Source: a virus
Lineage: Duplodnaviria > Heunggongvirae > Uroviricota > Caudoviricetes
Virus record (IMG/VR): IMGVR_UViG_2671180846_000019
Strand: one strand, 5' to 3'
DNA length: 5,483 nucleotides
Below are positions 1-3,000 of the stretch, in pieces (within the stretch, counting starts at the first letter, position 1; each line of letters begins with the position of its first letter). A program made the position numbers.

Positions 1-3000
1 CACCACGCAGTTCGTCAGGCAAAGAGAAAGGCCAATATGACATACATGAAGGCGTATCAAAAAGCATGGAAAGAACACCGCGATCGATACCAACAAGACA
101 TGGAAAAGCTTGAATCAGAAAACATGGAATTAAGACGAAAGCTCGGTGAAGCAAAACGAGACATTGATGCTTACAAGCGACTTTTTAATGGTGAAAGCCA
201 TGCTTAGCCCATCCCAATCCCTTCAATACCAGAAAGAAAGCGTCGAGCGAGCTTTAACGTGCGCTAACTGCGGTCAGAAGCTGCATGTGCTGGAAGTTCA
301 CGTGTGTGAGTACTGCTGCGCAGAACTGATGAGCGATCCGAATAGCTCAATGTACGAGGAAGAAGACGATGAATGAGTTAATAAATGGCAATGCCATCAA
401 AATGACAAGCATTGAAATAGCTGAGTTGGTGGGTAAGCGTCATGACAATGTGAAACGTACCATCGAAACGCTGGCTAAAAATGGTGTTATCCGGCTTCCT
501 CAAATTGAGGTTTCCGAAAGAATCAATAACTTAGGGTTCAATGTTCAGTACGAGCATTACGTCTTCGAGGGCGAACAAGGTAAGCGAGACAGTATTGTCG
601 TTGTTGCCCAGTTGTCGCCAGAGTTCACCGCTCGTCTTGTTGACCGTTGGCGAGAGCTTGAAGAAACTGCGGTTAATATCCCCAAAACGTTACCGGAAGC
701 GTTGCGCCTTGCTGCTGATCTTGCTGAGCAGAAAATGCAACTGGAAAACCAGCTCGCAATTGCCGCACCTAAAGTTGAGTTTGCCGATCGCGTTGGCGAG
801 GCCAGCGGAATTTTGATTGGAAACTTTGCAAAGGTTGTTGGTATTGGTCCAAACAAACTGTTTGCNNNNNNNNNNNNNNNNNNNNNNNNNNNNNNNNNNN
901 NNNNNNNNNNNNNNNCCGGGCGTGGTCAACAGTGGCTGACCAGAAAGCTGCTCGATAACGGAATGCTGAAAGTAACAGGGGAGGCTGCTTAATGGCTAAC
1001 CTACGCAAAGAATCTCGCGGCAGAGAATGCCAGGTACGTATTTACGGCATATGCAATGGCAATCCTGAAACTACAGTTCTGGCACATTACCGGATGGCTG
1101 GAATTTGCGGAACGGGAATGAAGCCTGACGACCTGATCGGCGCATGGGCTTGTAGCGCGTGTCACGATGAAATCGACCGACGCACCCATAACCTCGACAA
1201 CAAAGACGCCAGACTTTACCACCTCGAAGGCGTGATCAGGACGCAGGCGATACTGCTGAAGGAGGGGAAGATTAAGTCATGAACGAATATCAGTTTGTGC
1301 TTCCATACCCGCCGTCGGTGAATACCTACTGGCGAAGACGGGGAAGCCAATACTACATCAGCGATAAAGGCCAGAAATACCGAAAAGACGTTCAGCAAAT
1401 CATCCACCAACTCAAGTTAGATATTTTCACCAAATCACGACTCCGCATCAAAGTAATCGCAGACGTTCCAGACTCCCGCCGCCGCGACCTAGATAACATC
1501 CTGAAGGGTTTACTCGACTCCCTTATCCATGCCGGATTTGCGGAAGACGACGAGCAATTCGATGACATTCGCGTAATTCGTGGTGTGAAAGTACCAGGCG
1601 GACGGCTTGGAATAAAAATCACCGAACTGGAGAACGCATGAACGCCACAATTCAAACGATACCAGAGCTTCTTATCCAGACACGAGGCAATCAGACCGAA
1701 GTGGCGAGGATGCTTTCCTGCGCAAGAGGAACAGTGCTCAAGTACAACCGAGACAGCAAAGGCGAGCGTCATGTAATAGTTAACGGCGTCCTGATGGTCA
1801 AACAGGGCAAGAGGGGAAGACGATGAGACTCGAAAGCGTAGCTAAATTTCATTCGCCAAAAAGCCCGATGATGAGCGACTCACTACTGGCCACAGTTTAT
1901 TGGTTTTCGTAACTGAGTCATTTTATTATTTTATTGCAACTTTTAATCTTTTATAGTGCGAAATAAATGGAGCTGGCATTCATTTCGCACTTTATGTTTT
2001 TGTTGGACTTATGTTATTTTGATTGAATTCAATTCAGTTAAAAAAAGAAGGTGATTGCTCCATTTATAAATGAATAGTCATCCCCTGTCTTGAATTCTGA
2101 TGTTACTTTATTAAATGCTAGTGTGAAGGCTACAGGTGCATACCCAATTGTTGCGCCAACTTGATATTCATCAACAGTTTTGTTTAGCGATACTGTTGTT
2201 TGTTTCGTCTGTATTGTTTTTCCTTCGAGAGTATAGTTGCGATTGACATCTCGTCTTTCCATACCTGCAAAAATCTTGTATTTGAATCCGCTTGTATCGG
2301 ACATATGCATTAAACCACGGGGAGCCAGCAGACCAAAGCCATTATCCGAATTGAAGGTTTTATCATTACCAATGGCAATGGTTGCGCCATATGCTACATA
2401 TTGAAATAAGTTTCCAGTAACAGCAGAAACTTCAGGGTATAATCCAACATTAGCACCTAAAATATCCATACTTGGTGTCATGGATAGCATCCCTTTTACA
2501 GTATAACCGTAGCGATTCTCTATTTGATCATCCCATGCATGATATTTTTCTGCCCCAATAATCTCATGAGCTTTATTTTGTACTTTCTGACCGCCTGCGT
2601 CGGGGCCAACAACACCTATGTCAGTACCTAATCGATAGCGAATCCAGTCATTCGCAAGGGAGTTCCATTCAATACCAGTGTGAGTGTATGCACTAAAAGC
2701 TCTGTCTCCAGTTACAGCTGTGTTGTGTCTTTTATTACTGCCTGATGGAGAGTAAATATCTTGCGCAATATGGAGAGATAATTGGCTCGAGTCTGAGATA
2801 TCGTGGCTATATCCCAGAAATAAGCCTTGTGAGTAATCATCTCTGTTTTCATGTTTATTGCCATAAATATCATTAAGTATTGGTTGAAACTTCCCTGCAT
2901 CATCATTTGCTAATGATAATGCAAGGCTGTTCGCGATAGCTGAACACGTGGTAAATGACAGAGCAATAAAGACGCCAGCGATGACACTTTTTTTCATATG

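What the first reader, a model, noticed from the sequence alone, without database searches (positions are those of the whole stretch)
1823..2037. Mosaic breakpoint: lambda-type Q gene truncated after about 20 codons
An ORF exactly where Q should start (ATGA-coupled to ninH) encodes MRLESVAKFHSPKSPMMSDS, matching my recollection of the lambda Q N-terminus, then diverges and terminates at codon 29. From about 1883 the DNA becomes AT-rich and carries lpxR on the opposite strand, followed by a different Q-like gene. This looks like a recombination scar where the late-regulatory module was replaced together with acquisition of the lpxR cassette.
Basis: partly seen in the sequence, partly recalled or inferred. 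Interest (0 to 1): 0.6.

Follow-up and report, generated by a model that had tools for sequence, protein, structure and literature searches.

The report
Lambda Q gene stub beside lpxR
This is a dead 5' stub of the phage lambda late-gene regulator Q, left where a lipid A deacylase (lpxR) cassette and a different type of Q gene were spliced into a lambda-like prophage; it is real, but ordinary and already annotated in public records.

Summary
Window 1823-1883 (61 nt, 20 codons) is 100% identical to the start of lambda and HK620 Q. Positions 1884-1900 are 12/17 identical, and after that similarity is at chance. The ORF stops after 29 codons, and no other piece of lambda Q is in the window. GC falls from 0.50 to about 0.30.

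A roughly 1.4 kb AT-rich cassette follows, with lpxR on the minus strand. Next come the last 13-18 nt of a phage-82-type rusA, ylcG, and an intact Q of the unrelated Q82 family (PF06323), which is the working late regulator.

The same block is in 620 of 5426 complete E. coli genomes, 54 IMG/VR contigs and phage 434. GenBank already labels the stub a Q N-terminal fragment, and RefSeq calls it a partial antitermination pseudogene. The cassette was never seen without the stub, so the junction arose once.

Two left contexts occur, ninH-Q' here and ninI-Q' in 434 and O157:H7. They diverge exactly at the Q start codon. I infer that at least one later homologous crossover fell inside the stub.

Verdict: a non-functional recombination scar at a moron and module-replacement junction. 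It is already known and of low interest.

The parts
1638..1826 (+). ninH, the intact gene immediately upstream. This left context is of the HK620/HK97 type.
   Evidence: PF06322, E 2e-24. Window 1600-1893 is 98.3% identical to HK620 rus-ninH-Q. RefSeq annotates 'protein ninH'.
1823..1883 (+). Q' stub, perfect block: the first 61 nt (codons 1-20) of lambda-type Q.
   Evidence: 100% identical to lambda, HK620 and 434 in alignment A1. Lambda Q translation.
1884..1900 (+). Q' stub, degraded end and breakpoint zone, including the shared hexamer GGCCAC at 1888-1893.
   Evidence: 12/17 identical to lambda Q (p about 1e-4), then chance level. The RefSeq pseudogene ends at 1894.
1823..1912 (+). The 29-codon ORF formed by the stub plus 9 foreign codons. 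It is ATGA-coupled to ninH.
   Evidence: No Pfam hit. Annotated in phage 434 as 'antiterminator-like protein ... Q P03047, N-terminal fragment'.
1955..2005 (.). Hairpin (arms about 1955-1969 and 1977-1991) followed on the + strand by a T-run (1992-2005). Candidate terminator or 3' stabiliser at the lpxR end of the cassette.
   Evidence: Minus-strand RNA folds at -19.1 kcal/mol, z -6.0. Plus-strand RNA folds at -16.4, z -2.9, followed by UUUAUGUUUUUGUU. Inverted repeat I1. All SNPs among 55 copies fall in the loop and none in the stem. The simple terminator scan did not call it.
2038..2997 (-). lpxR (lipid A 3'-O-deacylase), the cargo gene of the cassette.
   Evidence: PF09982, E 7e-40. RefSeq WP_000750155.1. 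Role in EHEC as summarised in PMC6863877 and PMC9263587.
2998..3320 (-). AT-rich upstream (promoter) region of lpxR and the right-hand end of the foreign cassette.
   Evidence: GC 0.255-0.28. No homology to phage 82, lambda or HK620. No similarity to the Citrobacter lpxR flank.
3321..3338 (+). Right-hand scar: the last 13-18 nt of a phage-82-type rusA, including the TGA that overlaps the ylcG start.
   Evidence: Alignment A2. 13/13 identical to the phage 82 rus 3' end at 3326-3338. About 520 E. coli genomes with intact rusA-ylcG-Q align from 3321-3327 onward.
3338..3457 (+). ylcG-family small gene.
   Evidence: RefSeq 'YlcG family protein'. 83-86% identical to phage 82 orf45 and PhiR47_2 ylcG.
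3472..4161 (+). Intact Q82-family antiterminator, the functional late regulator of this prophage.
   Evidence: PF06323, E 1e-91, profile positions 1-216 of 220. 90-91% identical to phage 82 Q.
4168..4237 (+). Late-promoter leader and intrinsic terminator downstream of the Q82-type gene.
   Evidence: Promoter-like site 4145-4173 and terminator 4207-4228 plus T-run. Terminator annotated at the same place in phage 434. Weak STnc240-like hit.

Best explanation
The feature is a non-functional 5' remnant (pseudogene) of a lambda-family Q antiterminator gene. It marks the left edge of a module replacement.

A lambda/HK97-type phage (...rusA-ninH-Q...) was joined by illegitimate recombination inside Q, at codons 21-26, to an AT-rich foreign cassette of about 1.4 kb. 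That cassette carries lpxR in the opposite orientation. Its other end is joined to the last few codons of rusA of a phage-82-type genome. The 82-type genome supplies ylcG, a Q82-family antiterminator and its late promoter.

Late gene control is therefore run by the Q82-type protein. The stub keeps only residues 1-20 of the Q-lambda 'torus' segment. It has none of the DNA-binding body, zinc-ribbon arm or RNA polymerase contacts, so it cannot act as an antiterminator. It is probably still translated as a 29-aa peptide, because it keeps the ATGA coupling to ninH.

After it formed, the stub served as a short patch of homology (61-77 bp) to lambda-type Q genes. At least one homologous crossover within it moved the lpxR/Q82 block between a ninI-type and a ninH-type nin region.

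Shown: the sequence identities, both junctions, the family assignments, the strict linkage of the parts, and the two left contexts. Inferred: the illegitimate origin, the lack of function, translation of the ORF, and the crossover within the stub.
For: - **Left junction.** 61 nt are identical to lambda and HK620 Q, then 12/17, then chance. Only Q nt 1-71 is present anywhere in the window.
- **Protein families.** The stub has no Pfam match. Lambda Q matches PF03589 only through residues 113-199, and the downstream gene is PF06323. PMC9388147 states that the Q-lambda, Q82 and Q21 families show no obvious sequence similarity. In Q-lambda, residues 1-44 form the torus, 61-113 and 153-207 the helix-turn-helix body, and 114-152 the zinc ribbon.
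- **Composition.** GC drops from 0.50 to 0.26-0.44 across 1900-3320.
- **Right junction.** It lies at the 82-type rusA 3' end.
- **Single origin.** 620 of 5426 complete E. coli genomes carry both junctions at 99% or more. All 54 IMG/VR contigs with the cassette flank carry the stub. No intact Q allele has the stub-specific bases T1884 and T1887.
- **Two left contexts.** There are 22 ninH-type contigs, and 31 ninI-type contigs plus phage 434. They diverge exactly at 1822, just before the ATG.
- **Independent annotation.** The phage 434 record calls it a Q N-terminal fragment. RefSeq calls it a partial antitermination pseudogene.
Against: - Nothing here contradicts the scar reading.
- **Function is not directly tested.** The ORF is intact in all 55 copies examined, is translationally coupled, and retains helix 1 of the Q-lambda torus, including V6. 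So a residual peptide activity cannot be excluded from sequence alone.
- **Selection cannot be measured.** All copies are about 99-100% identical.
- **The degraded end is ambiguous.** The 5 mismatches packed into 1884-1900, next to 61 perfect bases, could be chance microhomology at the original joint. They could also be an older decayed stub whose left part was refreshed by later crossovers. The data do not separate these.
- **The donor is unknown.** The only relative found outside E. coli, a Citrobacter lpxR at 73% amino-acid identity, has unrelated flanks.
Confidence: 0.9

Rival explanations
1. The 29-codon ORF is a genuine small gene. Its peptide carries the first helix of the Q-lambda torus and acts on RNA polymerase or NusA, for example as a decoy that interferes with lambda-type Q of superinfecting phages. 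It is retained for that reason.
For: The ORF is intact in all 55 copies and keeps the ATGA coupling to ninH. Q-lambda residues 1-11 contact the RNA polymerase zinc-binding domain at the RNA-exit channel, and V6 is functionally important (PMC9388147). The phage 434 record annotates a ribosome-binding site for it.
Against: All copies belong to one nearly identical block, so an intact ORF is expected without selection. SNPs are 2 non-synonymous (A7V, T24I) and 2 synonymous. The torus folds only in the context of Q bound to the paused complex with NusA, and it needs residues 1-44. The last 9 codons are read-through into foreign AT-rich DNA. There is no Pfam or other family hit.
Confidence: 0.04
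2. The stub and cassette were built in two separate steps rather than one. First lpxR was joined to an 82-type phage at the rusA end. Later that phage was joined to a lambda-type phage inside Q. The steps could also have happened in the reverse order.
For: The two junctions involve different phage parents. Lambdoid modules are demonstrably re-sorted around this block: 434B swaps everything to the right of ylcG (PMC9119081). Contigs L040 and L043 lack the Q82 segment, and L013, L045 and L055 carry 89-92% variants.
Against: No intermediate was found. There is no lpxR cassette with an intact 82-type rusA, and none without the Q stub, among 5426 E. coli genomes, 50,697 phage records or IMG/VR.
Confidence: 0.35
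3. The truncation is an artefact: an assembly error, the masked N-run, or a frameshift in an otherwise intact Q gene.
For: The window does contain a masked stretch (866-915).
Against: The N-run is 900 nt away in another gene. The junction is identical in hundreds of independently finished genomes and in phage 434, which was sequenced from virions. No further Q sequence exists in any frame.
Confidence: 0.005

Closest known systems
Phage 434 gene CPT_434_64 (UMO75328.1, GenBank OL657226.1; genome announced in PMC9119081)
   Same: It has the same 90-nt ORF and the same Q'-lpxR-ylcG-Q82-like order. The DNA is 96-100% identical, and the only notable difference in the spacer is an 8-bp indel. The depositors already describe it as an N-terminal fragment of lambda Q.
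   Different: In 434 the stub follows ninI (serine/threonine phosphatase), as in lambda. Here it follows ninH, as in HK620 and HK97. The two contexts diverge exactly at the Q start codon.
RefSeq pseudogene 'antitermination protein, incomplete, missing C-terminus' (ECO26_RS31185 in O26:H11 11368; ECpv15279_RS04155 in O157:H7)
   Same: The O26 record is the same locus at 100% identity. The pseudogene corresponds to window 1823-1894.
   Different: None. It is the same feature.
Lambda Q antiterminator (NP_040642.1; Pfam PF03589; PDB 7UBM, 4MO1)
   Same: The first 61 nt and 20 residues are identical, and the position after the nin genes, with a translationally coupled start, is the same.
   Different: It lacks residues 21-207, which include the rest of the torus, the helix-turn-helix body, the zinc ribbon and all Pfam-recognised sequence. 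No lambda-type late promoter or Q-binding element follows it.
Lambdoid 'morons' and mosaic joints (Hendrix, Juhala, Casjens and colleagues; cited from my own knowledge)
   Same: It is an AT-rich, oppositely oriented host-benefit gene set between two phage genes, with abrupt homology boundaries at or near gene ends.
   Different: The classical picture places morons in intergenic positions and joints at gene boundaries. Here both joints cut inside genes (Q codons 21-26 and the last codons of rusA), and the insertion coincides with a swap of Q family.
Phage 434B, whose late region was replaced by E. coli K-12 DLP12 sequence (PMC9119081)
   Same: It shows the same region being re-sorted by recombination through short shared patches. 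The annotated crossover point is in ylcG.
   Different: That was a laboratory-era homologous exchange to the right of lpxR. It did not create the Q stub.

Membership tests
Q-lambda antiterminator family (Pfam PF03589) | Sequence homology to lambda Q | tested here: met
   Met for the first 20-24 residues only. 61 nt are 100% identical, blastn gives E 2e-30 and tblastn covers aa 1-24.
Q-lambda antiterminator family (Pfam PF03589) | Match to the family profile, which covers the zinc-ribbon arm and the C-terminal part of the body | tested here: not met
   The 29-aa product has no Pfam hit. Lambda Q scores 193 bits, with its best stretch at residues 113-199. No other Q-lambda sequence is present in any frame of the window.
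Q-lambda antiterminator family (Pfam PF03589) | Complete N-terminal torus segment (residues 1-44), needed for antitermination (PMC9388147) | tested here: not met
   Only residues 1-20 are retained. Residues 21-29 are unrelated.
Q-lambda antiterminator family (Pfam PF03589) | Cognate late promoter with a Q-binding element immediately downstream of the gene | tested here: not met
   Downstream lies the lpxR cassette on the opposite strand. The only late-promoter-like leader and terminator follow the Q82-type gene at 4145-4237.
Q82 antiterminator family (Pfam PF06323), for the gene at 3472-4161 | Full-length match to the family profile, and position upstream of the late promoter and terminator | tested here: met
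   E 1e-91, profile positions 1-216 of 220. 90-91% DNA identity to phage 82 Q. Terminator at 4207-4236.
Moron (independently expressed cargo cassette in a lambdoid phage) | Base composition distinct from the flanking phage genes | tested here: met
   GC 0.26-0.44 across 1900-3320, against about 0.50 on both sides.
Moron (independently expressed cargo cassette in a lambdoid phage) | Absent from otherwise syntenic relatives, with sharp homology boundaries | tested here: met
   HK620 and lambda lack it to the right of Q nt 71. Phage 82, PhiR47_2 and DLP12-like prophages lack it to the left of 3321.
Moron (independently expressed cargo cassette in a lambdoid phage) | Own promoter and terminator | tested here: inconclusive
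   A strong hairpin lies 3' of lpxR, but its U-run is on the + strand and the terminator scan did not call it. Independent Ler/Pch-dependent expression is reported in the literature (PMC9263587 and PMC6863877, both citing Ogawa 2018). It was not tested here.
LpxR lipid A deacylase (Pfam PF09982) | Full-length profile match | tested here: met
   E 7e-40, profile positions 2-320 of 323.

The most novel reading that the evidence does not exclude
The stub is not just debris. One possibility is that its 29-aa peptide, which carries helix 1 of the Q-lambda RNA-exit-channel torus, modulates RNA polymerase or interferes with lambda-type Q of competing phages. The other is that the stub is kept because its 61-77 bp of Q homology acts as an adaptor. 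That adaptor would let the lpxR/Q82 virulence block recombine into any lambdoid phage that has a lambda-type Q. The two left contexts show that such a crossover happened at least once. Selection for either role is not shown.
Probability: 0.05. Interest if true: 0.4.

Novelty: already known. Interest (0 to 1): 0.12.

Why it matters
It matters mainly for annotation and for bookkeeping of phage evolution.

- **Junction markers.** The two junctions (Q codons 21-26 and the last codons of 82-type rusA) bracket the lpxR virulence-associated cassette. That cassette is carried by about 11% of complete E. coli genomes, including O157:H7, O26, O111, O145 and EPEC O127:H6, and by the classic phage 434.
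- **Single origin.** Because the junction is unique, it is a clean marker that all these lpxR copies descend from one splice event.
- **Short homology is enough.** It also shows that a stub as short as 61-77 bp can mediate re-sorting of the block between different nin regions.
- **No new biology.** The finding does not open a new mechanism or an unanswered question.

Tried and rejected
- **Donor of the lpxR cassette.** The one genome-contig scan with LpxR returned a single relative, Citrobacter sp. ANG330 at 73% amino-acid identity. Its flanks show no similarity to window 1884-2037 or 2998-3400. The donor remains unknown.
- **Cassette without the stub, or an intermediate Q allele.** I scanned IMG/VR with a post-breakpoint 33-mer and with a 27-mer carrying the stub-specific bases. 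Both returned only the same stub-bearing contigs. E. coli genomes gave only two kinds of hit: the full junction, or an intact Q matching nt 1-71.
- **A closer lpxR-free relative of the Q82 allele.** None was found. Hits are either the 620 full-block genomes or copies that are 80-95% identical, nearly all below 90%.
- **An RNA gene inside 1823-2037.** Rfam at E up to 1 found nothing there.
- **Flanking repeats as a sign of transposition.** There are no terminal inverted repeats. The only direct repeat near both junctions is GATGATGAGCGA (1867-1878) and GATGATGAGTGA (3296-3307). It is 11/12 identical, is of a length common by chance in this region, and is not at the exact breakpoints. I treat it as unproven.
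- **A remaining part of lambda Q elsewhere in the window (split gene).** None was found.
- **Technical note.** An early script wrongly reported loci as missing because several loci share one FASTA file. This was corrected from then on.
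Full report
**What the window is.** The 5483-base window is 100% identical to the chromosome of E. coli O26:H11 strain 11368 (904172-909754) and to many other EHEC and EPEC genomes. It covers the nin region and late-regulator region of a lambdoid prophage. RefSeq annotation, the ORF list and Pfam give this order:
- ninF
- a KilAC/Roi-type antirepressor
- a DUF1364 protein
- rusA (1279-1641)
- ninH (1638-1826)
- a partial 'antitermination protein' pseudogene (1823-1894)
- lpxR on the minus strand (2038-2997)
- ylcG (3338-3457)
- a 229-aa Q protein (3472-4161)
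- a membrane protein
- a DUF3927 protein

**Checking the observation.**
- The ORF at 1823-1912 encodes MRLESVAKFHSPKSPMMSDSLLATVYWFS. Its ATG overlaps the ninH stop as ATGA.
- At the DNA level (alignment A1), 1823-1883 is identical in the window, lambda, HK620 and phage 434.
- The first differences from lambda are at 1884 and 1887.
- Positions 1884-1900 are still 12/17 identical (p about 1e-4). The following 27 nt are 10/27, which is chance.
- blastn of the whole lambda Q gene against the window finds only nt 1-71 (E 2e-30). tblastn finds only residues 1-24. The other 88% of Q is simply absent.
- GC drops from 0.505 (1700-1899) to 0.295 (1900-2099). It stays at 0.26-0.44 until about 3300.

**The other end of the replacement.**
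- Homology to the phage 82 rus-orf45(ylcG)-Q segment begins at about 3321-3326. The same holds for phage PhiR47_2 and for about 520 E. coli genomes with a DLP12-like rusA-ylcG-Q arrangement.
- The window retains only the last 13-18 nt of an 82-type rusA (...GGGGAATGAATGA), which overlaps the ylcG start.
- The structure is therefore: Q' (5' end) | AT-rich cassette of about 1.4 kb with lpxR | 'rusA (3' end)-ylcG-Q82-type Q.
- Two different lambdoid parents are joined through the cassette, and both joints cut inside genes.

**Which Q works.**
- Pfam places lambda Q in PF03589 and the gene at 3472-4161 in PF06323, with E 1e-91 over the full profile. The 29-aa product matches nothing.
- According to PMC9388147, the Q-lambda, Q82 and Q21 families have equivalent function and genome position but no obvious sequence similarity.
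- In Q-lambda, residues 1-44 fold into the RNA-exit-channel torus, as helix 1-11, loop 12-31 and helix 32-42. Residues 61-113 and 153-207 form the DNA-binding body, and 114-152 form the zinc ribbon.
- The stub keeps residues 1-20 only. It therefore cannot bind a Q-binding element or load onto RNA polymerase.
- A promoter-like site and an intrinsic terminator follow the Q82-type gene at 4145-4237. A terminator is annotated at the same place in 434.
- The Q82-type gene is the late regulator.

**How widespread the block is, and whether it is known.**
- The junction (1823-2300) is present at 99% identity or more in 620 of 5426 complete E. coli genomes. About 725 further genomes match only Q nt 1-68 or 1-71, meaning they carry an intact lambda-type Q.
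- The same 620 genomes carry the right-hand junction.
- Among 50,697 phage records, only phage 434 and its derivative 434B have it.
- In the 434 GenBank record the ORF is already annotated as 'antiterminator-like protein ... similarity to lambda Q P03047, N-terminal fragment'. It is followed by 'lipid A deacylase', 'YlcG-like' and a 'Q82-like' activator (genome announcement PMC9119081).
- RefSeq annotates it as a partial pseudogene in O26 and O157:H7.
- The feature is therefore already known.

**Single origin and later re-sorting.**
- An exact 33-mer from just beyond the breakpoint occurs in 54 IMG/VR contigs. Every one of them has the Q stub directly upstream.
- A 27-mer containing the stub-specific bases T1884 and T1887 retrieves only those same contigs. 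No intact Q allele therefore looks like the stub's tail.
- The stub, spacer, lpxR, its upstream region and ylcG travel as one 96-100% identical block. The segment to the right is sometimes a diverged Q82 allele or is replaced altogether, as in 434B.
- To the left there are two contexts. One is ninH-Q', found in this window and 22 contigs, and HK620-like at 98%. The other is ninI-Q', found in 434, O157:H7 and 31 contigs, and lambda-like.
- The two contexts diverge exactly at position 1822, immediately before the ATG.
- The only sequence these two contexts share to the left of the cassette is the stub itself. The simplest account is that at least one homologous crossover with a phage carrying an intact lambda-type Q occurred within these 61-77 bp. 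This is an inference, not a demonstration.
- It may also explain why the left 61 nt are perfect while the last 17 nt are degraded. The alternative is chance microhomology at the original illegitimate joint, for example the shared GGCCAC at 1888-1893.

**Is the small ORF a real gene?**
- It is intact in all 55 copies examined, but those copies are nearly identical overall.
- The four SNPs inside it are two non-synonymous (A7V, T24I) and two synonymous.
- There is no evidence of selection on the peptide. Its last nine codons are read-through into foreign DNA.
- Because the ATGA coupling is preserved, it is probably translated.
- I rate a function for the peptide at about 4%.

**The spacer 1913-2037.**
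- It contains a strong hairpin with arms at about 1955-1969 and 1977-1991.
- As minus-strand RNA, which is the 3' end of the lpxR message, it folds at -19.1 kcal/mol (z -6.0).
- As plus-strand RNA it folds at -16.4 kcal/mol (z -2.9). It is then followed by UUUAUGUUUUUGUU, the arrangement of an intrinsic terminator for rightward transcription.
- Among the 55 copies, three variable sites lie in the 7-nt loop and none in the stems.
- It is a candidate terminator or 3' stabiliser at the cassette edge. The simple scan did not call it because of its loop geometry, and it is untested.
- A consequence follows from established knowledge of N-mediated antitermination. Rightward early transcripts must now cross about 1.4 kb of untranslated, antisense-lpxR sequence plus this hairpin before reaching ylcG and Q. 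Q expression should therefore depend strictly on N.

**Cargo.** LpxR (PF09982) is the lipid A 3'-O-deacylase. In EHEC it belongs to the Ler regulon and dampens the TLR4-mediated response. This comes from PMC9263587 and PMC6863877, which summarise Ogawa et al. 2018. It is associated with LEE-positive strains (PMC6724679). This fits a moron that benefits the lysogen. I could not trace its donor. The only non-E. coli relative retrieved, a Citrobacter sequence at 73% amino-acid identity, has unrelated flanks.

**Verdict.** It is a textbook lambdoid mosaic scar that is already annotated in GenBank and RefSeq. The added value here is fourfold:
- the base-level definition of both junctions;
- recognition of the second scar (the 82-type rusA 3' end);
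- the evidence for a single origin;
- the inference that the stub has served as a recombination patch.

Novelty: already known. Interest: low.

Noticed in passing
window 5344-5483 (+), cut by the window end: There is an STnc100-like RNA match (33 bits, E 1.7e-4, below the gathering score of 47) just after the DUF3927/TciB gene. A 2026 preprint (10.64898/2026.05.13.724894) reports that the Hfq-bound sRNAs PasD1 and PasD2 are structural relatives of STnc100. It also reports that they lie within 10 kb of Q and lpxR in more than 98% of cases, so this is probably a PasD-type sRNA gene.
   Followed up: partly
window 3321-3338: This is a second scar. Only the last 13-18 nt of a phage-82-type rusA remain, fused to the AT-rich lpxR upstream region and overlapping the ylcG start. 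An intact rusA of another type sits 1.7 kb upstream at 1279-1641.
   Followed up: yes
window 866-915: A run of 50 N lies inside the KilAC/Roi antirepressor gene. In the identical O26:H11 genome this stretch is 149 real bases, so window coordinates to the right are shifted by -99 relative to the true sequence. The gene is intact there (723 nt).
   Followed up: yes
window 1955-2005: A strong hairpin lies between the Q stub and the lpxR stop codon, with a T-run on the + strand only. All three variable sites in it among 55 copies are in the loop. It is a possible terminator for rightward early transcripts and/or a 3' stabiliser for lpxR mRNA.
   Followed up: partly
window 1921-1936: There is an 8-bp tandem duplication (ATTTTATT ATTTTATT) relative to phage 434, which has one copy. 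It is the only length difference between the two in the stub-to-lpxR spacer.
   Followed up: no
window 1867-1878 and 3296-3307: A direct repeat, GATGATGAGCGA and GATGATGAGTGA (11/12), lies near both ends of the cassette: inside the Q stub and about 15 nt before the right junction. It could be chance, since similar repeats are common in this AT-rich stretch, or a trace of how the cassette was joined.
   Followed up: no
window 4145-4237: A late-promoter-like site (TTGCAA-17-TATACT) and an intrinsic terminator (4207-4228 plus a T-run) follow the Q82-type gene. Together they define a short leader RNA with a weak STnc240-like match (28 bits, E 0.42).
   Followed up: no
L001 1493-3207 (O26:H11 11368, just left of the window): In the O26 genome an IS3-family element splits a hypothetical gene immediately upstream of the window start. 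The window's first ORF (37-207) is the C-terminal half of that disrupted gene. Other strains carry IS600 or ISVsa5 insertions in this region.
   Followed up: no
L013, L045, L055, L040, L043 (IMG/VR contigs): Some copies of the block carry a diverged (89-92%) or entirely different module to the right of ylcG. L013 and L045 also have an lpxR upstream region that is only 82-84% identical. The block's right side is therefore re-sorted as well.
   Followed up: partly
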